Shown here: piece after piece, positions 14,411 to 53,566 of the stretch
Layout of the letters: every line of letters starts with the position of its first letter
Position numbering within the stretch: the stretch's first letter is position 1
From: Cyclobacteriaceae bacterium
GTDB lineage: Bacteria; Bacteroidota; Bacteroidia; Cytophagales; Cyclobacteriaceae
DNA: 64,000 nucleotides
Assembly: GCA_039971015.1 (NCBI GenBank)
Contig: JBDVKV010000024.1
Coordinates: forward strand, 1,171 to 65,170
Direction of reading: 5' to 3'
Notes under the pieces: generated by a model
The model's input: only the letters and a program-made list of their open reading frames with translations
The model's database searches: none
Told to the model about the DNA's origin: nothing
Made by a program: the position numbers and the translations under genes

Positions 14411-15216
14411 GAGTTTACTGTTATTGATGATGAAATATTAAATTCGTTTTCTGGAACAATGTAGGGGCAGTTGGTGCAAGGATCGTTATAAACATTCACC
14501 TTACAGCAAAACGTTTCTTCAATTATTGGCTTTGTGAAAATTTCCCTGGGGCTGCCTTTCGCAGCTATATGCCCATCCTTTAGTAAATACAGCTGATCTG
14601 CAAATTGGGAAACTTGATTTAAGTCATGCACGATGGCCAGCACTCCAATATTTCGGGCGCAAGCTTTTTTCACTAAACCAAAAATGAGTTGTTGCCTCGC
14701 AATATCTAAACTTGATGTAGGCTCATCCAAAAGTATGTACCTGGGGAAATCTTGTTCCTCCCACACTTGAGCCAGTACACGCGCCAGCTGCACACGTTGC
14801 TGCTCTCCTCCTGACAATGTCAGATAGTTTCTCTCTCTCAAATTGTGTGTCCCAGTCAAATCCATGACTTCCTCCAACAGGGTACCATTGATGTTTTTTG
14901 ACCTACCGCTGTACTGTCTTCCCATTTCTACCACTTGTTGAACGGAGAAGGGAAATTGAAGGTGAGTATTTTGAGGCAACACCGCCCTGACTTTTGCAAG
15001 GGCAATTGCCGTATAATTATTTATGGCTTTTCCATTCAATAATACACTTCCCCGATAACCCTGTGTCTCGTTGGAAATTATTTTCAAGAAAGAACTTTTA
15101 CCCGCTCCATTGGGTCCGGCCATTGCTGTGAAGGATCCCGGTTGAACATCTACATTCACCGAATTCAATATGGCTCTTCCATTTTTTGTTAACGATATGT
15201 TGCTGGCAGCTATCAT
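14407..15216 (-). CDS. hmuV: Heme ABC transporter ATP-binding protein
   Basis: GPNGAGKSS, LSGGEQQRVQLARVLAQVW, LDEPTSSLDIARQ and IVHDLN. Confidence 0.92.
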   Translation of the reverse strand: MIAASNISLTKNGRAILNSVNVDVQPGSFTAMAGPNGAGKSSFLKIISNETQGYRGSVLLNGKAINNYTAIALAKVRAVLPQNTHLQFPFSVQQVVEMGRQYSGRSKNINGTLLEEVMDLTGTHNLRERNYLTLSGGEQQRVQLARVLAQVWEEQDFPRYILLDEPTSSLDIARQQLIFGLVKKACARNIGVLAIVHDLNQVSQFADQLYLLKDGHIAAKGSPREIFTKPIIEETFCCKVNVYNDPCTNCPYIVPENEFNISSSITVNS

Positions 15217-44711: not shown

Positions 44712-45167
44712 ATGATTCAAATTTTTACAGATGGTGCCGCACAAGGAAACCCTGGTCCGGGGGGGTTCGGAACAATTCTTCGTTACGGCAAACACGAGAA
44801 AGAACTCAGTGAAGGATTTCGGTTAACCACCAATAACCGGATGGAATTGTTGGCTGTAATAGTGGGGTTGGAGTCTATAAAAAAGAGCGGTATTCCAGTG
44901 GTGGTGATTTCAGATTCCAAATACGTAGTCGAGGCTGTAGAAAAAGGATGGATATGGAATTGGGAGAAGAACAATTTTAAAAAGAAGGCCAATCCAGACT
45001 TATGGAAAAGATTTATCCCTCTTTATCACAAATACAAACCCAAGTTCAAGTGGATAAAAGGACATGCTGGGCATGCCGAGAATGAGCGCTGTGATCAACT
45101 GGCGGTAGACGCAGCACAAGGTTACGACCTTAAGATAGATGCGGAGTACGAAAATTTGAAAGCTTAG
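44712..45167 (+). CDS. rnhA: Ribonuclease HI
   Basis: FTDGAAQGNPGPGG, TTNNRMEL, SDSKYV and WIKGHAGHAENERCDQLA. Confidence 0.97.
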   Translation: MIQIFTDGAAQGNPGPGGFGTILRYGKHEKELSEGFRLTTNNRMELLAVIVGLESIKKSGIPVVVISDSKYVVEAVEKGWIWNWEKNNFKKKANPDLWKRFIPLYHKYKPKFKWIKGHAGHAENERCDQLAVDAAQGYDLKIDAEYENLKA

Positions 45168-46510
45168 TCCAACACCCGTTCTACTTCATCAGCATGAATC
45201 CCCAGTGTTTTCAGCTCCTTTAAAATTGGATCATACAATTCTTTACTGACTGGTATGCAAACACCTCTTTGAGTAATCTTACCCTCCAGAAAAAGCCTGC
45301 ATGCAATTGCCAATGGTAACCCAACTCCTTTTGCCATAGCGGTATGCACTGCATCATCGCCAAGCATGATTAAGTAAGACTGAATTTCATGTGTCTTCTG
45401 ATTCAATTCATAGGTAAACCTATGCCACATCACAACCATGTCTTTATCTTCCGGCTCCAGTTTCCACTTCTTATTTAATATCACTTCCAATATTTGCGCA
45501 GGTGTTCCTTCGTTAAGGCCGACCAAGTCCCGATCAAAAAAACCAGACCATTTCAACTTTTTCATTTCTTCGCTTGACTCACCCAAACCAAATCGTGATA
45601 TAAGTTTTTCTTCCACCATCTCCACATCATCATAGGGCGAAAAAGAATTGATGAAATCACGATGTGACATTTTACTTACTCCCTCCATCTGGTAGGTGTC
45701 ATCAGTGCATCCCAATTGCACCAAAATATTCCAGGCAGAACAAAATCCTTCATTCCTTAAGGTACCACGCAACATGGTTTTTACACCCTTCAAACCATAG
45801 GTATCCAAATATTTTAAAGAGTCTCGGTTCGCATAACCCTGAAAATTTCCATAACCAGGTATATGAACATTCGTTGTACGCGTAAATAATCTTTGGTAGG
45901 GGATGAATTTATATTGATTCTCCTGTAAAAATTTTGCTACCCCTTGCCCTGCCATCACAACATTGCGGGGGTTCCAGGTGAATTTATACCTCCAAGGATT
46001 ATCAGGATCGGTTTCAGGGGCTATCAACCCGCCCGCAAAAGATTCAAAAGACAACACCTTGCCACCTTTTGCTTTTATTCCGTCAATTACCTCCATGGCG
46101 CTCATATGGTCAATCCCCGGATCAAGACCACATTCATTCATAAAAAGAAGACCTTTAGACTTTGCCTCCTCATGGAAAGAACTCATCTCATCTGAGACAT
46201 AGCTTGCATTGAAAAGGTGTTTGCCTAAAGCAAGACAATGCCTTGCTACCTTAGGATGAAAAGCTGCCGGCAACAAGGAAATAACAACATCGCATGATGC
46301 AATTACCTCCTCACACAATTCAGTTTCTTCAATATTAAAGCGGATAGCTATCCCATTCTTTGAGTTGCCAATTCTCTCCTGAGCTGACTTGATATTGAAA
46401 TCGCCCACCGTAACCATCCAGTTCCCATTGTTAGCATGATCCAGAAGGTAAGTGATCAATGCAGAAGATGATCTCCCCGCACCCAATACCAGTATTGATT
46501 TTTTTGCCAT
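45164..46510 (-). CDS. Saccharopine dehydrogenase family protein
   Basis: ILVLGAGRSS, NASY, ECGLDPGIDHMSA, YKFTWNP, YANRDSL, RGTLR and TAMAKGVG. Confidence 0.9.
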   Translation of the reverse strand: MAKKSILVLGAGRSSSALITYLLDHANNGNWMVTVGDFNIKSAQERIGNSKNGIAIRFNIEETELCEEVIASCDVVISLLPAAFHPKVARHCLALGKHLFNASYVSDEMSSFHEEAKSKGLLFMNECGLDPGIDHMSAMEVIDGIKAKGGKVLSFESFAGGLIAPETDPDNPWRYKFTWNPRNVVMAGQGVAKFLQENQYKFIPYQRLFTRTTNVHIPGYGNFQGYANRDSLKYLDTYGLKGVKTMLRGTLRNEGFCSAWNILVQLGCTDDTYQMEGVSKMSHRDFINSFSPYDDVEMVEEKLISRFGLGESSEEMKKLKWSGFFDRDLVGLNEGTPAQILEVILNKKWKLEPEDKDMVVMWHRFTYELNQKTHEIQSYLIMLGDDAVHTAMAKGVGLPLAIACRLFLEGKITQRGVCIPVSKELYDPILKELKTLGIHADEVERVLD

Positions 46511-46650
46511 TTGCATTACTATTATCAAGAGAGCAGAGAGTCAAAAACCTACTTCCTGCTCATTAAGCGCCAAATTAAAGGAATTATGTTCAAATCCTTT
46601 TTAGGAAGGTGGGTGTTTATTAACTTTAGTTGACCACCCTCCTTCATTTT

Positions 46651-47118
46651 ATGAAAGGATTATTGACCTTCGATCAAGTAGATGATTTGGACGCTGAATC
46701 TAAGTATCTAGTCCATAAGGCAAAGGATGCTGCCCAACATGCTTATGCCCCCTACTCCAAATTTCAGGTAGGTGCCGCCATTATTCTTGAAGATGATTCT
46801 TTGGTGGTAGGTAATAATCAGGAAAATGCGGCCTACCCTTTAAGTATGTGCGCTGAGCGCATTGCGCTATACACTGCAGCCTCTGCCTATCCTGGTCAAA
46901 AGGTAAAGAAGCTGGCTGTGGTAGCACATAAAAAAAATCATAAGGAGCTAACCGCTGCCACTCCTTGCGGAGGATGCAGACAGGTAATACTGGAATATGA
47001 AACACTGCAAAAGGCCCCTATACAAATTGTGATGCTTACTGAAGAATCTAAATGGACGCTATTCCCATCTGCTTCATTCTTACTACCATTCAGTTTCAAT
47101 AAGGAGAATCTTATATAA
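46651..47118 (+). CDS. cdd: Cytidine deaminase
   Basis: AYAPYSKFQVGA, NQENAAYP, CAERIA and PCGGCRQ. Confidence 0.94.
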   Translation: MKGLLTFDQVDDLDAESKYLVHKAKDAAQHAYAPYSKFQVGAAIILEDDSLVVGNNQENAAYPLSMCAERIALYTAASAYPGQKVKKLAVVAHKKNHKELTAATPCGGCRQVILEYETLQKAPIQIVMLTEESKWTLFPSASFLLPFSFNKENLI

Positions 47119-47224
47119 TATTACCTCGAATAGATGTGATAATCTTTATTAATCCGCCAATATGCTATAAATTGGGGCTAATAATTGTACTTTTTCATTC
47201 TCTTATCCTTATCATAAGAATTAA

Positions 47225-47590
47225 ATGAATCCACTAGTAATTGCGGAGACCTCCGAAACCCCCAACATTTTGATGGATAAAGCCCAAGGTAAATTTGAGG
47301 TGACAGGCAGATCACTCATTGATAACGCGAGCACTTTCTATCAACCTGTGGTGGAATGGTTAAAAGAGTATGCAAAGAAACCCAACGCTGAAACTGACAT
47401 TTCATTTAAATTTGAATACCTCAATATTGAATCTTCTAAATCCATATTGGACTTACTTACTGTTTTGGATAAAATAAAAGGTGTCACCGTCACATGGTAT
47501 TTCAACGAGGATGATGAGGACATGGAAGAGATTGGAGAAGAATTAGCCGAGCTTGTCACCATCCCATTTAAATTCGAAATTTATTCCTAA
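47225..47590 (+). CDS. SiaC-family (DUF1987) protein
   Basis: ETSETPNI...GRSL...FYQPVVEWL...FEYLN...WYFNEDDEDMEEIGEE...PF. Confidence 0.85.
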   Translation: MNPLVIAETSETPNILMDKAQGKFEVTGRSLIDNASTFYQPVVEWLKEYAKKPNAETDISFKFEYLNIESSKSILDLLTVLDKIKGVTVTWYFNEDDEDMEEIGEELAELVTIPFKFEIYS

Positions 47591-47615
47591 ACGTGCCCGC
47601 ACCTGCTAGAGTGAT

Positions 47616-50600
47616 ATGAGTGAAGAAATACTAAAGGCACTTACCCAATTATTTGCCATCATCACCAAGCAGGATGGCGGGGTGACTGTGAATGAACGTC
47701 AATACGTAATTCGGTTCTTTCAGCAGGAATTGGATCAGGCATCCATTGAGGCCTACCTGGAGCGTTACGATAAATTTTCAGGGTATAGCGAGAAAGGTCC
47801 TTCCCATCAGTTAACAATCGCAGCTCCTTCTGTTAAAGATTCAATAGTTACGCTGGGTATCTGCAAAAAGATCAACAGAACCCTTACCCAGAAACAAAAG
47901 GTAATTGTATTAATAAAATTACTTGAGTTGGTAGGGTCCGATAATAAATTTACTCCCCAACGCATGGAAATCATTAACACGGTTTCCACGGTATTCAACA
48001 TCAGTGCGGATGAGTACAAACTCATTGAAACATTTGTAGTCACCACCAACATGGCTGAGCTGGATTTCTCAGACATCCTTGTTGTCAATGCTCAACCGGA
48101 AAAAGCTGCAAAAAAGCAAAAACACATACAGACCGACATCGATGGAAACCTGTTCTTTCTGAAAGTACCAAGTGTCGATTTATACTTTGCACAATACCTG
48201 GGTGAAGAATCCCATTACCTCAATGGGTTTGTCATGCAGCATAACCGCATCTATCTATTCTCCCATGGAAGTACCATAAAAATACAATCTGGAAATGCCC
48301 TTTATTACAGCGACATAGTTGCTGACTTTAATGAAGAACTGCAAACCACTAAACTTTCGTTTAATGCAACCATTGATGAATATCGGTTTCCAAACGGAAC
48401 GGTTGGTCTCAAAGACATTGTAGTTGCTGAGGGTCCGGGGAAGTTAATTGGTATAATGGGTGCCAGTGGCGCAGGGAAAACAACCTTATTAAATGTACTT
48501 GCAGGGCTTGAAAGACCAACCAAAGGAGAAATTCTCGTTAACGGGTATAACATTCATAGCCGGCCTGACAAAATAAAAGGTGTAATCGGGTACGTGGCAC
48601 AGGATGACTTGCTCATTGAAGAATTAACCGTGTACGAGAACCTCTACTTTAATGCTAAACTCTGTTTTGCAAATTTTTCAGAAACAGAAATAAATGATCG
48701 CGTTCTGGAAGTACTCGGCAATCTCGGGCTTGAAACCCGCAAGGATTTGAAGGTAGGAAGTGTGCTGGATAAAAAAATCAGTGGTGGTCAACGCAAAAGA
48801 CTCAACATCGCTCTGGAACTTATCCGAGAGCCAGCCATTCTGTTTTTAGACGAGCCTACATCTGGATTGTCATCACGTGATTCAGAGAATGTAATAGATC
48901 TACTAAAAGAATTATCCTTAAAAGGAAAACTGGTTTTCGTAATCATACACCAGCCCTCGTCTGACATTTTTAAAATGTTCGACAAGATGATAATCATGGA
49001 CACTGGAGGGTATCCTACTTATTACGGAACTCCGGTAGAGGCTGTATCATACTTTAAACGTGCCACACATCAGGCACACAGCAACAGAGGACAATGCGAA
49101 ACTTGTGGAAATGTAAATCCAGAACAAATCTTCAACATCATTGAGGCTAAAGTAGTGGATGAGTACGGCCAACCCACCAATAAGAGGAAGGTAACACCCA
49201 TGCAGTGGCATAATATGTTCAAGAGCAAGTTTAAAATTGCTGCATTAGCTAACGAAAAGGAAGATCCTCCACAGTCCCTTCATATCCCGAACAGGATAAA
49301 GCAAACATTAATTTTTGCTACGAGGGATTTGAAGGCCAAAATAAGCAACCGTCAATACTTATTGATCAATCTTCTTGAAGCACCCTTTCTCGCACTGATA
49401 CTTTCATTCATCATCAAGTACAAAAGCGCACCTGGTGGAGAAGATTACATGTTTCGATTTAACGAGAACCTTCCTGCCTATTTGCTGATGAGCATCATTG
49501 TTGCCTTGTTTATGGGCCTGACGGTGAGCGCAGAAGAAATCATTAGAGATCGAAAGATTTTAAAAAGAGAATCCTTTTTGAATTTAAGCTGGAACAGTTA
49601 TCTCGTTTCCAAACTAGGTATTTTGTTTTTATTATCTGCCCTACAAACACTGATGTTTGTCCTGGTTGGAAATCTTGTATTGGAAATTCAGGGAATGACT
49701 TTGGCCTTTTGGTTTATCCTCTTCTCTACTTCCTGCTTGGCCAATGTGCTTGGTTTAAATATCTCCTCCGCATTTAATTCTGCGGTAACGGTCTATGTCT
49801 TAATCCCACTGCTCCTTATCCCACAAATGATACTAAGCGGTGTGCTTTTTAGCTTTGATAAACTTCACACTGTGATCAGCAATAAAGAAAATGTACCCTT
49901 TGTTGCCGATCTCATGGCCTCCCGGTGGGCATACGAAGCTTTGGCTGTTTATCAGTTTGTTAACAATGACTATGAAGAACCTTTTTACGCATATGAAAAG
50001 GAAGCATCCATAGCAGATTTCAAGTCTGCCTACCTGGCTGATGAGATGATAAAGCGAAACCAATTTGCGATTGATCATTACCAAAGTGACAATGATTCAA
50101 CCAGAAATGAAGTTCGCATTGCATTAAGCATTCTGAGAAATGGCCTATTAAATGAATCGTATAACGAAGGCCTGGAGGGCCAAAATCTCAATACGCAATT
50201 GACCCCAAATGGGTACTCAAAGGAGTTTGGCAATCTGCTAGATGGTTATTTACTCAATTTCAGGAAGCATTATCAAAATGTGTACAACGAACAGGTGAAA
50301 ACTGCAGATTTAAAAAGAACCTTTTATGAAAAAGAAGGATTTGACCTGAATGAAGAGAAAAACAATTACTACAACGAGAGCCTTGCTGATCTGGTAAAAA
50401 ACGTGAATACGAAAGAGAGACTCGCTATTGAGAATAACCGCCCAATACAACTAATCGACCCTATTTATCAAACTCCAAGCCCTAATCATCCATTAGACTA
50501 CCGAACAGGATTCTTCTTTCCTAAAAAAAGCTTCTTGGGCATGGAATACAGCACTTACACCTTCAATAGTGTGGCAATTTGGCTGATGACCATTGCCCTG

Positions 50601-50678
50601 TACGTTATGCTTTATTTTGAGTTGCTCAGGAAACTCCTTGACACCTCAGGTAAGGTTACATTTGTAAACCGAAAGTAA
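47616..50678 (+). CDS. Fused ABC exporter: TerB-like + FHA-like + ABC ATPase + ABC2 permease (ABCG-like topology)
   Basis: Helical TerB-like N-terminus; GASGAGKTT, ISGGQRKR, LDEPTSGL and IHQPS; six-helix permease (EEIIRDRKILKRE, LLIPQMILSG) plus a C-terminal TM helix. Confidence 0.85.
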   Translation: MSEEILKALTQLFAIITKQDGGVTVNERQYVIRFFQQELDQASIEAYLERYDKFSGYSEKGPSHQLTIAAPSVKDSIVTLGICKKINRTLTQKQKVIVLIKLLELVGSDNKFTPQRMEIINTVSTVFNISADEYKLIETFVVTTNMAELDFSDILVVNAQPEKAAKKQKHIQTDIDGNLFFLKVPSVDLYFAQYLGEESHYLNGFVMQHNRIYLFSHGSTIKIQSGNALYYSDIVADFNEELQTTKLSFNATIDEYRFPNGTVGLKDIVVAEGPGKLIGIMGASGAGKTTLLNVLAGLERPTKGEILVNGYNIHSRPDKIKGVIGYVAQDDLLIEELTVYENLYFNAKLCFANFSETEINDRVLEVLGNLGLETRKDLKVGSVLDKKISGGQRKRLNIALELIREPAILFLDEPTSGLSSRDSENVIDLLKELSLKGKLVFVIIHQPSSDIFKMFDKMIIMDTGGYPTYYGTPVEAVSYFKRATHQAHSNRGQCETCGNVNPEQIFNIIEAKVVDEYGQPTNKRKVTPMQWHNMFKSKFKIAALANEKEDPPQSLHIPNRIKQTLIFATRDLKAKISNRQYLLINLLEAPFLALILSFIIKYKSAPGGEDYMFRFNENLPAYLLMSIIVALFMGLTVSAEEIIRDRKILKRESFLNLSWNSYLVSKLGILFLLSALQTLMFVLVGNLVLEIQGMTLAFWFILFSTSCLANVLGLNISSAFNSAVTVYVLIPLLLIPQMILSGVLFSFDKLHTVISNKENVPFVADLMASRWAYEALAVYQFVNNDYEEPFYAYEKEASIADFKSAYLADEMIKRNQFAIDHYQSDNDSTRNEVRIALSILRNGLLNESYNEGLEGQNLNTQLTPNGYSKEFGNLLDGYLLNFRKHYQNVYNEQVKTADLKRTFYEKEGFDLNEEKNNYYNESLADLVKNVNTKERLAIENNRPIQLIDPIYQTPSPNHPLDYRTGFFFPKKSFLGMEYSTYTFNSVAIWLMTIALYVMLYFELLRKLLDTSGKVTFVNRK

Positions 50679-50739
50679 ATCTTGCATTTTTGGCAAGTGA
50701 CAGTTGATTTTTTTACTTTGTAACGATAAACGATCCGTT

Positions 50740-51636
50740 ATGAGAATTTTAAGTGTGGCTCTGGTGGCCCTATTCTTAATATCCTGCAGCTCTGGGAAAA
50801 AACCAGATGAGCAGGCTTTTGAAGACAGTTTGGATTCAACGCTCAATCAGGGACCATCTATTGATGAAGAGGTTATTGGCAGTATTTTAGATCAAATACC
50901 CAGTCCGCTTGAAATTTCTGTTTTGCTGAAGAAATCAGGAATCAAGTACAATCCTGACTTATTGAATTCCCCGGATAACCTGCCTAAGTACAATAGTAAC
51001 TACAAAATGGCCCTCAATCTGGGTATATATGGTACCGATCTTGGCTATACTAATATTTACGGACAAAACCAGAGCGGCATTAAGTACTTGTCTTCGATTA
51101 AAAGCCTGGCCAATCAGCTTAATATTGGTCAATTTTTTGACATTGAGACAATCGGCAGACTGGCCACCAACAGTAAAAATCTCGATTCATTATTGCTCAT
51201 TACCACTCAGAATTTTAACTCAATCAATCATTATCTCCAGCAACAAAACAGATCCAATCTCAGTGTATTGCTACTTACTGGAGGCTGGTTGGAAGCCATG
51301 CAGGTAACCTGTCAGTTGGCCGCCAATAACCCTGATCATGGCGAACTAAAAGAGAAAATTGGTGAGCAAAAGATCACTTTAGAGCAAATTTTACTGCTTT
51401 TTTCATTCTACGAAAACGATGAAAATATGGCATCGTTATTGACTGATTTGAAAGAGTTAGAAGCAGCATTTAACAAAATCAACATAACCTATACCTATAA
51501 GGAGTCATCAATGGAAGTGGTAGATGGGGTGGCTGTAATCAAAGACAACAGCACCACCACTATTGAAATTACAGATGAGGATGTTCGTAACATCATGTCC
51601 AAAACCAATTCCATTAGAAACAAAATCATTAGCTAA
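50740..51636 (+). CDS. Uncharacterised all-helical lipoprotein
   Basis: Lipobox LISC followed by SSGKKPDEQ; IPSPLE, ALNLGIYGTDLGY and GGWLE. Start moved to ATG 50740. Confidence 0.8.
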   Translation: MRILSVALVALFLISCSSGKKPDEQAFEDSLDSTLNQGPSIDEEVIGSILDQIPSPLEISVLLKKSGIKYNPDLLNSPDNLPKYNSNYKMALNLGIYGTDLGYTNIYGQNQSGIKYLSSIKSLANQLNIGQFFDIETIGRLATNSKNLDSLLLITTQNFNSINHYLQQQNRSNLSVLLLTGGWLEAMQVTCQLAANNPDHGELKEKIGEQKITLEQILLLFSFYENDENMASLLTDLKELEAAFNKINITYTYKESSMEVVDGVAVIKDNSTTTIEITDEDVRNIMSKTNSIRNKIIS

Positions 51637-51649
51637 CATTGCATTAAAT

Positions 51650-52081
51650 ATGAAAAGGATAGTTTTTTCAGTTTTATTAATCTGCATAGCAAGTTGGGGC
51701 TCAACCGGATTGGCTGGTCAATGTGATGCCGAAAACTTAAGCAACGCTTGTATTCCCAAATTATCGGGAGGGTTCAACTTTCTCAAAAGTTATAAAATTG
51801 ACGGCCAGGGCGGCTCAAAGGATAAAGTGGAATATTCCTATGTATTTACCAAAGGCACACAATATATGATCAACCTGTGTGCTGGTGGCAACGGCCCTGA
51901 CGGCCTGGTAGTAAGTCTTTACGATTCTCAGCGCAACAAGGTAGCCAGTAGCAAAGTAAATGACCAGTTTATCTCTGCTATAGCTTATCCATGTAACGCT
52001 ACAGGGATATATTATATTCAATACACTTTTGATGGTTCAGCCACCTATTGTGGGGGTAGTGCACTGGGATTCAAAAGATAA
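51650..52081 (+). CDS. Small secreted Cys-rich beta-sandwich protein (PPC-like)
   Basis: Signal peptide MKRIVFSVLLICIA; 5 Cys in the mature part; LVVSLYDSQRNKVASS and CNATGIYYIQYTF. Start moved to ATG 51650. Confidence 0.75.
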   Translation: MKRIVFSVLLICIASWGSTGLAGQCDAENLSNACIPKLSGGFNFLKSYKIDGQGGSKDKVEYSYVFTKGTQYMINLCAGGNGPDGLVVSLYDSQRNKVASSKVNDQFISAIAYPCNATGIYYIQYTFDGSATYCGGSALGFKR

Positions 52082-52101
52082 AAGCCATATCAATTTGATA
52101 T

Positions 52102-52142
52102 CAACGGCCGCTCTGAATTAATTGGAGCGGCTGTTGTTTTTA
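52102..52142 (+). terminator. Intrinsic terminator closing the siaC/ABC/lipoprotein unit
   Basis: CAACGGCCGCTC-loop-GAGCGGCTGTTG followed by a T-tract. Confidence 0.8.
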
Positions 52143-52147
52143 TTAGG

Positions 52148-52810
52148 ATGAAGGAAAAGCAGTTACAATTCAATTTCGAAGCTCGATACTATACACTTGG
52201 GAAATTAACACCTGAGACCCAACAAGTATGGTTCGTCATTCACGGTTATGGGCAATTAGCACAGTACTTTATTAAAAAATTTAAGGCACTAGAGAATGAG
52301 CGTATTTACGTAATTGCTCCTGAAGGCCTTTCCCGGTTTTATCTCGAAGATATACCGACCAGAGTAGCAGGAGGAAGTAACCGCGTAGGCGCTACCTGGA
52401 TGACCAGAGAAAACAGGGAAGCAGATATTCGCAACTATATTAGTTATCTACAAAGTGTTTACGACACCGAACTTCATCAAATAAATTACCCACCTGTTTC
52501 CATTCTTGGATTTTCACAAGGTGGAGCCACAGCAACAAGATGGGCTTTAAGTGGCAAACCCCAGTTTGATAAATTTATTTTATGGGCTGGAATATTTCCT
52601 CCAGATATGAATTTTGATAGCGGAAAAGAAATCCTGAAAGACAAGAAAGTAATTACCGTATATGGTGATCAAGATCCTTTTATTACCCCAGAAAGAATGA
52701 AGGAAATGGAATTGCTTTCTGCAAAGATCGATCTTGTTCCAAACAAAATAATCTTCAATGGCAAACACGAAATAGAAGACCAGACGTTGCTAAGTCTGGT
52801 GGACTTATAA
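52148..52810 (+). CDS. Alpha/beta hydrolase (carboxylesterase/phospholipase-like)
   Basis: VIHGYGQLA, LGFSQGG (nucleophile Ser), GDQDPF and GKHEI. Confidence 0.88.
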   Translation: MKEKQLQFNFEARYYTLGKLTPETQQVWFVIHGYGQLAQYFIKKFKALENERIYVIAPEGLSRFYLEDIPTRVAGGSNRVGATWMTRENREADIRNYISYLQSVYDTELHQINYPPVSILGFSQGGATATRWALSGKPQFDKFILWAGIFPPDMNFDSGKEILKDKKVITVYGDQDPFITPERMKEMELLSAKIDLVPNKIIFNGKHEIEDQTLLSLVDL

Positions 52811-53566
52811 ATTCTTCTTCACTATTGTTGAACTTGCCTGAGCAGTAGGAAACACAACTAAATCTGCCATTACCACGTGAGGCGGCCGTGTGAGCGCAAA
52901 CAATATCATATCAGCGATATCTTCAGGTCTCAACGGCTCAAACCCTTTATACACAGTGTTTGCGCGTTCTTCATCTCCTTTAAATCGAACCAATGAAAAT
53001 TCAGTTTCCACCAAGCCGGGATGAATGGCCGTTACTTTTATTCCATGGGCGTTTAAATCCATTCGCATGCCCTTTGTAATGGCGTCTACTGCAAATTTAC
53101 TGGCACAGTATACATTTCCGTTGGGGTAAGCTTCCTTGCCTGCAATGGATCCAATATTGATAATATGGCCTTGATTTTTTTCGACCATACCAGGCAAAAC
53201 TTCATGCGAAACATAAAGCAACCCTTTTACATTGATATCAATCATGGCGTCCCAATCTTCCACACTGCCAGATTGTATAGGGGCCAGACCGTGAGCATTT
53301 CCAGCATTATTGATAAGTATATCTATCTGCTTCCACTTTTCATCCAATGATTGAAATGCTTCAGACACCTCTTTCTTATTCCTCACATCAAAAGACAACA
53401 CTGTTACATCTGTCTTACTTCCGAGGTCACTCTTCAGGTTGTCCAATCGCTCTTTTCTCCTACCGCAAAGAATTAATCTATAATTATGATCAGCGAGTAG
53501 ACGGGCAGTGGCCTCTCCTATTCCTGATGTAGCTCCAGTTATTAACGCAGTTCTTTTTTGGGACAT
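52805..53566 (-). CDS. Short-chain dehydrogenase (YdfG-like)
   Basis: ITGATSGIG, INNAG, YCASK and PGLVETEFS. Confidence 0.92.
   Translation of the reverse strand: MSQKRTALITGATSGIGEATARLLADHNYRLILCGRRKERLDNLKSDLGSKTDVTVLSFDVRNKKEVSEAFQSLDEKWKQIDILINNAGNAHGLAPIQSGSVEDWDAMIDINVKGLLYVSHEVLPGMVEKNQGHIINIGSIAGKEAYPNGNVYCASKFAVDAITKGMRMDLNAHGIKVTAIHPGLVETEFSLVRFKGDEERANTVYKGFEPLRPEDIADMILFALTRPPHVVMADLVVFPTAQASSTIVKKNL

What the first reader, a model, noticed from the sequence alone, without database searches (positions are those of the whole stretch)
47225..52142. Uncharacterised four-gene system: SiaC-like + TerB/FHA-like ABCG-type exporter + helical lipoprotein + secreted Cys-rich protein
Seen: four co-oriented genes with gaps of 25, 61 and 13 nt, closed by one terminator at 52102-52142. 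They encode a cytoplasmic SiaC-type adaptor, a single-chain NBD-before-TMD ABC transporter, a lipoprotein and a small Sec-exported protein. Known: SiaC normally acts in the SiaABCD Thr kinase/phosphatase module, and NBD-TMD fusions of this type occur in Rv1747-like and eukaryotic ABCG transporters. Inference: a signal-controlled export or envelope system in which the lipoprotein and secreted protein are partners or cargo. I know of no described function for this combination. It is the best candidate here for an undescribed system.
Basis: partly seen in the sequence, partly recalled or inferred. Interest (0 to 1): 0.75.

Follow-up and report, generated by a model that had tools for sequence, protein, structure and literature searches.

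The report
Partner-switch-linked ABC exporter cluster, reduced form
These four genes are the conserved output half of an undescribed Cytophagales system in which a SiaABC-type phospho-switch, often fed by chemotaxis-like sensors, sits next to an ABC transporter with two novel periplasmic partners; this genome keeps only the output half, and its switch protein has lost its phosphorylation site.

Summary
In detail: four co-oriented genes with gaps of 25, 61 and 13 nt and one strong terminator. They encode a SiaC-family protein, a 1020-aa TerB-ABC-ABC2 half-transporter, a lipoprotein and a small secreted Cys-containing protein. The last two have no Pfam, NCBIfam or PDB relatives.

The cluster is a real unit. 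In 80 Cytophagales genomes all four genes keep the same order wherever the contig allows, while the flanking genes vary. The ABC, lipoprotein and small protein stay together down to about 29% N-terminal identity, even where gene order changes.

The main new result lies outside the window. In most relatives the four genes are preceded by cheR, cheB, a GAF protein, a large sensor PP2C phosphatase (SiaA-like) and a SiaB-family kinase. In some, a full CheA/W/Y/B/R/D pathway with REC-PP2C phosphatases takes their place. A search anchored on SiaC gave SiaB 67/67, PP2C 46/46, ABC 60/62, lipoprotein 35/36 and small protein 33/35.

The window has the reduced form: no SiaA or SiaB in 64 kb. The SiaC phospho-acceptor Thr68 is Ile, yet the gene remains under purifying selection.

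Best reading: a partner-switch-gated envelope ABC machine, here probably phosphorylation-independent. The substrate is unknown. I found no paper describing it.

The parts
47225..47590 (+). g1: SiaC-family (DUF1987, STAS-like) partner-switch protein, 121 aa
   Evidence: Pfam PF09345, 120 bits. NCBIfam SiaC equivalog 75 bits, below its cutoff of 150. Aligns over its full length with P. aeruginosa SiaC structures 6KKO/6K4F, E 1.2e-10. dN/dS 0.06-0.08 against L001 and L002.
47426..47428 (+). Codon 68 of g1: Ile at the position of the SiaC phospho-acceptor Thr68 (motif YLNIESSK, against YFNTASSK in relatives)
   Evidence: Alignment to SiaC peptide LLYLNTSSIK (phospho-site from PMC7647112). Thr in 71 of 78 sequences (77 orthologues plus the window's own g1). 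Ile, Val or His only in the window's clade. Codon read directly.
47616..50678 (+). g2: 1020-aa half-transporter with an N-terminal regulatory module, NBD, ABC-2 type TMD and a periplasmic insert
   Evidence: Pfam TerB, ABC_tran, ABC2_membrane. Walker A, signature, Walker B D412/E413 and H445 are invariant in 12 homologues. Closest solved structures are Pdr5, Cdr1, ABCG2, ABCG1 and ABCG5/8.
47637..48023 (+). TerB-like domain of g2 (aa 8-136), cytoplasmic
   Evidence: PF05099 above its gathering score in the window protein and matched in 17 of 17 family members.
48123..48365 (+). Conserved beta-rich region of g2 (aa ~170-250) with weak FHA-like similarity
   Evidence: N-terminal profile against PDB: best hit Mek1 FHA domain 5YYX, E 0.0074, query residues 179-227. 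No Pfam FHA hit. Invariant residues include H170, G177, N203 and G218.
48384..49055 (+). Nucleotide-binding domain of g2 (aa ~257-480)
   Evidence: ABC_tran 111 bits. PDB profile hits cover residues 262-496.
49095..49106 (+). Invariant C494-x-x-C497 motif in the NBD-TMD linker
   Evidence: Invariant run S489-Q504 in A1. Codons read directly. Function not tested.
49353..49859 (+). Predicted TM1-TM5 of g2 (aa 580-748)
   Evidence: Kyte-Doolittle scan finds five hydrophobic segments, inside the ABC2_membrane match.
49860..50561 (+). Predicted periplasmic domain of g2 (aa ~749-982) between TM5 and TM6; in its 199-aa core (aa 782-980) acidic and Cys-free
   Evidence: No hydrophobic segment between residue 748 and 983. 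Composition was computed on aa 782-980: 22 K+R, 31 D+E, 0 Cys. The C-tail carries 4 K/R in 15 residues. It occupies the position of loop EL3 in ABCG proteins (my knowledge). No Pfam match.
50562..50630 (+). Predicted TM6 of g2 (aa 983-1005)
   Evidence: Hydrophobicity scan.
50740..51636 (+). g3: lipoprotein, 298 aa, a new family with no Pfam, NCBIfam or PDB match
   Evidence: Lipobox LISC with an invariant Cys. 2951 database clusters, all named 'hypothetical' where a source gives a name. AF2 pLDDT 70: helical domain plus a C-terminal four-strand sheet and helix. Foldseek PDB best E 0.6. Found next to the ABC gene in distant loci.
51650..52081 (+). g4: secreted 143-aa protein, predicted beta-sandwich, five invariant Cys, a new family
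   Evidence: Alignment A2. 1461 clusters, none with a Pfam domain. AF2 pLDDT 53, eight strands. Foldseek not significant. HMM hits next to the ABC gene in L084, L089 and L090. dN/dS about 0.012.
52102..52146 (+). Intrinsic terminator closing the cluster
   Evidence: 15-bp stem with 8 GC pairs and a T run.

Best explanation
The four genes are the effector half of a widespread, undescribed Cytophagales system.

g2 is an ATP-driven ABCG/ABC-2 type half-transporter, presumably a homodimer. It has a cytoplasmic TerB plus FHA-like N-terminal module and a periplasmic domain of about 235 aa inserted between TM5 and TM6. g3 (lipoprotein) and g4 (disulfide-containing beta-sandwich) are its periplasmic partners. 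They either receive what the pump extracts from the inner membrane or are acted on by its periplasmic domain.

g1 is a SiaC-family, STAS-like switch protein. I infer that it binds the cytoplasmic part of g2 and gates its activity. The analogies are SiaC activating SiaD and MlaB binding the MlaF ATPase.

In most relatives the phosphorylation state of g1 at the Thr68 equivalent would be set by an adjacent SiaB-family kinase and a SiaA-like PP2C phosphatase. Their input is either a dCache-HAMP-GAF-PAS sensor accompanied by CheR and CheB, or a complete Che pathway acting through REC-PP2C proteins.

In this genome's lineage the sensor, kinase and phosphatase genes are gone from the locus, and Thr68 has become Ile. 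g1 therefore most likely acts as a phosphorylation-independent, constitutive subunit.

Shown: gene content, domain identities, co-inheritance, loss of the Thr, purifying selection.
Inferred: g1-g2 binding, the direction of regulation, the periplasmic partnership, and an amphiphilic envelope substrate (lipid or glycolipid-like).
For: - Domains.
- Active-site motifs invariant.
- Six TMs with a large TM5-TM6 loop.
- Synteny in 80 genomes: g1 78/80, g3 78/80, g4 76/80, against 38-49/80 for the flanking genes.
- The ABC-g3-g4 trio persists to 29-32% N-terminal identity, including the order g3-g4-ABC.
- Upstream genes in relatives: SiaB family NF038262 at 180 bits against a cutoff of 85; SiaA-like PP2C at 214 bits over the SiaA phosphatase region; CheR, CheB and GAF.
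- Full Che clusters.
- SiaC-anchored reciprocal test: ABC 60/62, g3 35/36, g4 33/35, SiaB 67/67, PP2C 46/46, CheR+CheB 31/32.
- Phospho-site: YFNTASSK in 51 of 53 SiaB-adjacent loci, variable in 24 SiaB-less loci, and Thr lost only in the window clade.
- No SiaB or PP2C in the window.
- g1 dN/dS 0.06-0.08.
- Literature precedents: unphosphorylated SiaC binds and activates its neighbouring output protein, and the authors propose that DUF1987 proteins modulate adjacent proteins (PMC8457831; PMC7647112). The STAS protein MlaB binds the ABC ATPase MlaF, with the phospho-site-equivalent Thr52 at the interface (PMC7367683).
Against: - No interaction, transport or expression data exist. Three RNA-seq runs gave zero reads on the locus.
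- Some ABC homologues keep the N-terminal module but have no SiaC gene nearby (L081, L085, L090). The module is therefore not solely a SiaC dock.
- SiaA and SiaB could be encoded elsewhere in this genome, since only 64 kb is visible.
- Glu69 next to Ile68 could mimic the phosphorylated state. g1 would then be locked in the non-binding state rather than the binding one.
- The structure models of g3 and g4 are of low to moderate confidence and match no known fold. Their roles and the substrate are guesses.
Confidence: 0.6

Rival explanations
1. g2 is a mechanotransducer rather than an exporter. Like FtsEX, MacB or LolCDE in logic, though not in fold, it would use ATP hydrolysis to move its large periplasmic domain. 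That movement would switch the activity or conformation of g3 and g4 in the periplasm, for example to control a surface behaviour such as adhesion, gliding or matrix release. No substrate would cross the membrane.
For: - A periplasmic insert of about 235 aa, apparently mostly helical (judged by eye from the sequence, not computed), lies between TM5 and TM6.
- Two dedicated periplasmic proteins are under very strong purifying selection, with dN/dS about 0.012.
- Upstream chemosensory-type inputs with CheR/CheB adaptation imply fast behavioural control.
Against: The TMD belongs to the ABC-2/ABCG family. The characterised members I know of are true exporters of lipids, glycans or drugs. Known mechanotransmission ABC systems use the unrelated FtsX/MacB fold. 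No enzymatic or effector domain was detected in g3 or g4.
Confidence: 0.2
2. g2 is an ordinary multidrug or toxic-compound efflux pump, as database names suggest. The neighbouring genes would have no mechanistic connection to it.
For: Sources name homologues 'ABC-type multidrug transport system ATPase subunit'. The NBD resembles those of DrrA and PDR transporters.
Against: Those names are automatic. Co-inheritance of g3 and g4 with the ABC gene holds across deep divergence and gene-order change, while the flanking genes turn over. The dedicated SiaB/SiaC/PP2C/Che front end is not what simple efflux pumps carry. The gene is single-copy and highly conserved: 69% identity at rank 120 of the hits.
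Confidence: 0.08
3. In this genome g1 is a decaying remnant with no remaining role. Only g2-g4 would be functional.
For: Thr68 is lost and no SiaA or SiaB is nearby. g1 is the least conserved of the four genes: 42-87% identity, against 65-92% for the ABC gene.
Against: The ORF is intact and of normal length. Its dN/dS is 0.06-0.08 against genomes whose synonymous sites are saturated. The rest of the SiaC fold signature is retained, with Pfam E 4.8e-35. The 25-nt spacing to g2 is kept.
Confidence: 0.1

Closest known systems
SiaABCD partner-switch system of Pseudomonas aeruginosa
   Same: It has a SiaC-family (DUF1987) protein. In relatives, a SiaB-family kinase and a PP2C phosphatase matching the SiaA phosphatase domain lie directly upstream in the same order A-B-C-output. 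The Thr68 motif (YxNT) is conserved.
   Different: The output is an ABC transporter, not the GGDEF cyclase SiaD. The sensor phosphatase is much larger (dCache-HAMP-GAF-PAS-PAS-PP2C), or is replaced by REC-PP2C proteins under a Che pathway. CheR and CheB are present. In the window SiaA and SiaB are absent and Thr68 is Ile. All scores against the NCBIfam SiaA and SiaC equivalog models fall below their cutoffs.
MlaB-MlaF in the MlaFEDB phospholipid transporter (PMC7367683)
   Same: A small STAS-type protein is encoded with an ABC transporter and, in Mla, binds its ATPase. The residue at the phospho-site-equivalent position lies at the interface.
   Different: No kinase or phosphatase is known for MlaB, whereas here both are encoded next door in relatives. 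The transporter fold differs: an ABC-2/ABCG-type TMD here, MlaE there. There is no MCE protein. g1 belongs to the DUF1987 family, not to canonical STAS. Binding has not been tested here.
Rv1747 of Mycobacterium tuberculosis (FHA-ABC exporter regulated by PknF; PMC3138270)
   Same: It is a single-chain exporter with the NBD before an ABC-2 type TMD and an N-terminal cytoplasmic regulatory module. It is linked to Ser/Thr phospho-signalling encoded next to it.
   Different: Rv1747 has two bona fide FHA domains and a Hanks-type kinase. Here there is a TerB domain plus a region that is only weakly FHA-like, a SiaB-type (HATPase-like) kinase acting on a separate switch protein, a large periplasmic insert and two periplasmic partners.
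Eukaryotic and fungal ABCG/PDR transporters and bacterial ABC-2 exporters (Wzm/Wzt, TarGH, DrrAB)
   Same: Same domain order and TMD family. These give the best PDB and TIGRFAM matches. The extracytoplasmic loop lies between TM5 and TM6, as in ABCG.
   Different: The loop is expanded to about 235 aa. The protein carries N-terminal TerB and FHA-like modules and an invariant CxxC in the linker. Scores fall far below the subfamily cutoffs: TIGR00955 gives 256 bits against a cutoff of 736.
Chemosensory pathways with alternative cellular functions (for example Wsp to WspR) and REC-PP2C/STAS switches (HptB-HsbR-HsbA)
   Same: In relatives L084 and L089, a CheA/W/Y/B/R(/D) cluster is followed by PP2C, kinase and switch protein. 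This parallels REC-PP2C partner switches downstream of phosphorelays.
   Different: The terminal target is an ABC transporter with periplasmic partners rather than a cyclase, sigma factor or flagellar component. I found no description of it in the searchable literature.

Membership tests
SiaABCD-type partner-switch system | SiaC-family (DUF1987/PF09345) switch protein | tested here: met
   PF09345 at 120 bits against a cutoff of 24.5. Full-length alignment to SiaC structures 6KKO/6K4F. The NCBIfam SiaC equivalog scores only 75 bits against 150, so g1 is a family member but not an orthologue.
SiaABCD-type partner-switch system | Phospho-acceptor Thr68 in the YLNT motif | tested here: not met
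   The window has Ile68 in YLNIESSK. Thr is present in 71 of 78 aligned sequences (77 orthologues plus the window's own g1) and in every distant homologue examined.
SiaABCD-type partner-switch system | Adjacent SiaB kinase and SiaA PP2C phosphatase | tested here: not met
   Neither is present in the 64-kb window by tblastn or HMM. Relatives do have them: SiaB in 53 of 77 genome loci and 67 of 67 metagenome loci, PP2C in 46 of 46. The rest of this genome is not visible.
SiaABCD-type partner-switch system | Output is the diguanylate cyclase SiaD (GGDEF) | tested here: not met
   The gene after siaC-like is the TerB-ABC transporter, with no GGDEF hit.
ABCG / ABC-2 (type V) exporters | NBD N-terminal to an ABC-2 family TMD in one polypeptide | tested here: met
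   ABC_tran at residues 272-416, then ABC2_membrane at 563-778 (64 bits against a cutoff of 26.9). Best PDB matches are Pdr5, Cdr1 and ABCG2.
ABCG / ABC-2 (type V) exporters | Intact ATPase motifs (Walker A, Q-loop, signature, Walker B Glu, H-loop) | tested here: met
   GASGAGKTT, SGGQRKR, D412-E413 and H445 are invariant in 12 homologues.
ABCG / ABC-2 (type V) exporters | Membership of a curated ABCG subfamily (TIGR00955/TIGR00956) | tested here: not met
   256 bits against a cutoff of 736, and 169 bits against 1959. g2 is related to these subfamilies but is not a member.
Rv1747-like FHA-ABC exporters | Canonical FHA domain(s) N-terminal to the NBD | tested here: inconclusive
   No Pfam FHA hit in 17 members, even at E up to 5. 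The N-terminal profile gives the Mek1 FHA domain as best PDB hit, at E 0.0074 over 49 residues. The GR and SxxH phosphothreonine-binding motifs are not evident in alignment A4.
TerB domain proteins | PF05099 match above the gathering score | tested here: met
   27.5-30.8 bits against a cutoff of 24.4 in the window protein. 17 of 17 members match, best E 1.3e-9.
MlaFEDB-type (STAS-regulated ABC with MCE protein) | STAS-type subunit bound to the NBD; MCE-domain periplasmic subunit | not testable with these tools
   Binding cannot be computed here because no multimer prediction is available. No Pfam family of any kind passed threshold in g3 or g4, so no MCE domain was detected. This is an analogy only.
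Bacterial lipoproteins | Signal peptide ending in a lipobox [LVI][ASTVI][GAS]C | tested here: met
   g3 has MRILSVALVALFLISC. The Cys is invariant across homologues down to 26-32% identity.

The most novel reading that the evidence does not exclude
The full system would be a new kind of signal-to-envelope machine. A chemotaxis-type pathway, or a CheR/CheB-adapted sensor phosphatase, would control within seconds an ABC-driven periplasmic apparatus (g2 periplasmic domain, g3 and g4) through a phospho-switchable STAS-like subunit. That apparatus would govern a surface behaviour such as gliding, adhesion or slime release in non-flagellated Cytophagales. This would give the first output for Che-like signalling in this group and the first natural case of a phospho-regulated STAS-type subunit gating an ABC transporter.
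Probability: 0.15. Interest if true: 0.9.

Novelty: new variant of a known kind. Interest (0 to 1): 0.68.

Why it matters
Post-translational control of ABC transporters by small binding proteins is poorly understood. The MlaFB study explicitly left open whether a STAS-type subunit of an ABC transporter is ever phospho-regulated (PMC7367683). This gene family offers a natural test case. A SiaC/STAS-like protein sits next to an ABC transporter, and in hundreds of genomes its kinase, phosphatase and sensory input are encoded alongside.

The finding also assigns a candidate output to orphan Che-like and CheR/CheB clusters in non-flagellated Bacteroidota. It defines two new, very strongly conserved periplasmic protein families (g3 and g4).

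The window's lineage is a natural 'front-end deletion' with a non-phosphorylatable switch protein. That makes it useful as a comparison for working out the direction of regulation.

Tried and rejected
- AlphaFold2 of g4 gave a poor model (pLDDT 53), and g3 only a moderate one (pLDDT 70). The alignments were shallow in diversity. Foldseek against the PDB gave nothing significant for either. A PPC or jelly-roll resemblance for g4 therefore stays an impression, not a result.
- Pfam, NCBIfam, PADLOC and PDB-sequence profile searches found nothing for g3 or g4. A defence-system reading was rejected, because the only hits were generic ABC ATPase matches.
- Rfam found no RNA element in 46000-53000.
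- Transcription could not be tested. The bacterium occurs in DNA runs labelled with another organism. Three RNA-seq runs of that label laid zero reads on the locus.
I used the SiaC alignment instead.
- Literature searches for DUF6272, DUF1987, partner switch plus ABC, TerB plus ABC, and chemosensory plus PP2C plus ABC returned only the Pseudomonas Sia papers and unrelated work.
- I considered whether L085-type clusters (g3-ABC next to saccharopine dehydrogenase and cdd) mean there is a second paralogue in the window. There is none. The only other ABC hit, at 14413-15183, is a generic ATPase at 23% identity.

Full report
OBSERVATION

The window carries four + strand ORFs at 47225-47590 (g1, 121 aa), 47616-50678 (g2, 1020 aa), 50740-51636 (g3, 298 aa) and 51650-52081 (g4, 143 aa). 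They are separated by 25, 61 and 13 nt. The only strong terminator-like hairpin in the region follows them: 52102-52136, a 15-bp stem and then a T run. G+C content is about 0.39-0.41 across these genes, within the 0.37-0.45 range of the rest of the window. No Rfam element is present.

Domain calls:
- g1 matches Pfam SiaC/DUF1987 at E 4.8e-35.
- g2 matches TerB (aa 8-136), ABC_tran (272-416) and ABC2_membrane (563-778). Fungal PDR and human ABCG transporters are its closest solved relatives.
- g3 has the lipobox LISC.
- g4 has a signal-like N-terminus and five invariant Cys.
- Neither g3 nor g4 matches any Pfam, NCBIfam, PADLOC or PDB sequence.

Only 'FHA-like' is weak. No Pfam FHA hit appears in 17 members. 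The best PDB match of an N-terminal profile is the Mek1 FHA domain, at E 0.0074 over 49 residues.

IS IT A UNIT?

A scan of one genome per GTDB species, using N-terminal motifs of g2, found 439 species with a relative. The best 80 are all Cytophagales: Cyclobacteriaceae MAGs, Ohtaekwangia, Chryseolinea, Chryseosolibacter and Fulvivirga. The closest is a Cyclobacteriaceae MAG at 92% identity, which places the window organism.

In those 80 loci, g1, g3 and g4 occur in the same order in 78, 78 and 76 loci. The misses fall where the locus or contig is short or ends near the cluster. The flanking genes of the window (cytidine deaminase, saccharopine dehydrogenase, hydrolase, SDR) are present in only 38-49 loci. 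Median gaps are 57, 62 and 17 nt.

g3 and g4 are more conserved than the transporter: 96-97% identity against 92% in the nearest genome. Their dN/dS is about 0.012. g1 is the fastest-evolving of the four but is still constrained, at dN/dS 0.06-0.08.

In 53 of the 77 genome loci that could be scored, five further genes lie directly upstream on the same strand:
- cheR
- cheB
- a GAF protein of about 260 aa
- a dCache-HAMP-GAF-PAS-PAS-SpoIIE (PP2C) protein of 1120-1166 aa, whose last 260 residues match the SiaA phosphatase model at 214 bits
- a 180-aa DUF6272 protein that passes the NCBIfam 'SiaB family protein kinase' cutoff (180 bits against 85)

The order is therefore siaA-like, siaB, siaC-like and then the ABC gene, in the slot that siaD occupies in Pseudomonas.

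I then searched 1.84 billion representative proteins with the g2 N-terminal module. This gave 619 clusters at E up to 1e-3. The full-length members are all about 990-1110 aa, down to 28% identity. The contexts of these distant members were as follows (g3 and g4 verified with HMMs):
- L082, Microscillaceae: cheR, cheB, GAF, PP2C, siaB, siaC, ABC, g3.
- L084: CheW, CheY, CheB, CheA, CheR, a SpoIIE-DUF6272 fusion, SiaC, ABC, g3, g4.
- L089: CheA, CheW, CheR, CheD, CheB, CheY, REC-PP2C, two DUF6272 genes, SiaC, REC-PP2C, ABC, g3, g4.
- L090: g3, g4, ABC, with no SiaC.
- L085: g3, ABC, with no SiaC.
- L081: the ABC gene alone.

RECIPROCAL TEST

I anchored a metagenome scan on the SiaC-like protein instead of the ABC gene. 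Counting only loci with enough flanking DNA, the results were:
- TerB-type ABC immediately downstream: 60 of 62
- g3: 35 of 36
- g4: 33 of 35
- SiaB upstream: 67 of 67
- PP2C: 46 of 46
- CheR plus CheB: 31 of 32

This SiaC subfamily is thus essentially dedicated to this transporter. The typical system has nine genes.

THE WINDOW HAS A REDUCED FORM

Cytidine deaminase sits 106 nt upstream of g1. Neither tblastn nor HMMs built from 54-60 relatives find a SiaB or PP2C gene anywhere in the 64 kb.

The SiaC phospho-acceptor is known to be Thr68 in the peptide LLYLNTSSIK (PMC7647112). In the alignment to the SiaC structure this residue falls on Ile68 of g1, in the motif YLNIESSK.

Across relatives, 51 of 53 SiaB-adjacent loci carry YFNTASSK, and so does every distant homologue examined. 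The 24 SiaB-less loci show varied motifs. Thr is replaced by Ile, Val or His only in the window and its six closest relatives. Glu69 appears in this clade before the Thr is lost (LNTESSK in L006 and L039).

The g2 N-terminal module is not decaying in this clade. It is 90% identical to L004, against 84% for the whole protein.

ANATOMY OF THE TRANSPORTER

Walker A, the signature motif, Walker B (D412-E413) and the H-loop His445 are invariant, so g2 is expected to hydrolyse ATP.

A hydrophobicity scan finds six TM segments: 580-602, 619-641, 662-689, 693-716, 720-748 and 983-1005. A loop of about 235 residues lies between TM5 and TM6; its 199-aa core (aa 782-980) is acidic and Cys-free. The C-tail is basic. 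With a cytoplasmic NBD, this places the loop in the periplasm, at the position of loop EL3 in ABCG proteins but much larger. That placement is an inference from topology. The loop is the obvious contact surface for g3 and g4.

An invariant C494-x-x-C497 motif sits in the NBD-TMD linker.

The AF2 model of g3 (pLDDT 70) shows a helical domain plus a small C-terminal sheet and helix. The g4 model (pLDDT 53) shows eight strands. Neither matches a known fold.

MECHANISM

Established knowledge: unphosphorylated SiaC binds and activates the protein encoded next to it. SiaB phosphorylation blocks this and SiaA reverses it. The authors of that work proposed that DUF1987 proteins generally modulate adjacent proteins (PMC8457831). 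Separately, the STAS protein MlaB binds the ABC ATPase MlaF, with the phospho-site-equivalent Thr52 at the interface (PMC7367683).

From these precedents and the gene-neighbourhood statistics, I infer that g1 binds the cytoplasmic part of g2 and gates it. I also infer that in most Cytophagales this is set by sensory input through PP2C and SiaB.

In this genome g1 would act without phosphorylation. That most likely makes it a constitutive partner. Glu69 raises the alternative of a locked 'phospho-like' state.

g2 with g3 and g4 would move an envelope amphiphile, as other ABC-2/ABCG exporters do. Less likely, it transmits force to its periplasmic partners.

None of these steps has been measured. 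RNA evidence could not be obtained.

COMPARISON AND NOVELTY

The system works like SiaABCD with a different output. It resembles MlaB-MlaF and Rv1747/PknF in its logic. It fails the membership tests for each:
- It has no GGDEF output, and the Sia equivalog scores fall below their cutoffs.
- It has no canonical FHA domain.
- It has no MCE protein.
- Its ABCG subfamily scores are sub-threshold.

Searches of the held literature found no description of the ABC-coupled system, of DUF6272 beyond database naming, or of g3 and g4. I rate it a new variant of known kinds: a partner switch and an ABC-2 exporter joined in a new way, with two new accessory families.

The window shows a derived, front-end-less version. 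This lowers the interest of this particular locus somewhat, but it provides a natural comparison.

Noticed in passing
window 49095-49106 (g2 aa 494-497): An invariant C-x-x-C lies inside a 16-residue invariant run (SNRGQCETCGNVNPEQ) in the linker between the NBD and TMD. It might form a metal or redox site, perhaps across the dimer. I could not link it to any known motif.
   Followed up: partly
L019 1347-3567; L079 1132-3323; 31 of 32 metagenome loci among L091-L170: CheR and CheB (a methylesterase-only protein, without a REC domain) accompany the dCache-HAMP-GAF-PAS-PP2C sensor, although Pfam detects no MCP signalling domain in it. The methylation substrate is unclear. It might be the HAMP-proximal coiled coil or the adjacent 260-aa GAF protein.
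   Followed up: no
L084 6871-8442; L088 693-1816; L089 6913-8007: The kinase and phosphatase genes vary in architecture among distant relatives. There is a single SpoIIE-DUF6272 fusion protein (L084), tandem duplicated DUF6272 genes (L088, L089), and two REC-PP2C genes flanking siaC (L089).
   Followed up: partly
L019 12573-13733, also L022, L024, L035, L051, L058: A sigma-54-dependent response regulator (REC-AAA+) lies directly downstream of g4 in one subclade, on the same strand. It may be a transcriptional link to the system, or it may be coincidental.
   Followed up: no
window 47429-47431 (g1 Glu69) and relatives L006, L018, L039: Ala69 changes to Glu next to the phospho-site in SiaB-less lineages that still have Thr68. 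The change therefore precedes the loss of Thr. It could be a phosphomimic or a compensatory change.
   Followed up: partly
window 46500-52900 (runs X1-X4): The locus is fully contained, at 14.6x word depth, in contigs of DNA runs labelled with another organism. That organism also has oligo-dT RNA-seq and large PacBio runs, so it is probably a eukaryote. The bacterium is likely an associate or contaminant of that host's samples.
   Followed up: partly
L085 8972-15316 versus window 45164-47118: A SiaC-less g3-ABC cluster in another Cyclobacteriaceae MAG lies next to the same saccharopine dehydrogenase and cytidine deaminase pair that flanks the window's cluster, but on the opposite side. This suggests an old, rearranged chromosomal neighbourhood.
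   Followed up: no
window 50681-50697: A weak 5-bp hairpin (cttgc...gcaag) lies in the 61-nt gap between g2 and g3, which is the longest gap in the cluster. It is too weak to call a terminator, and its conservation was not checked.
   Followed up: no
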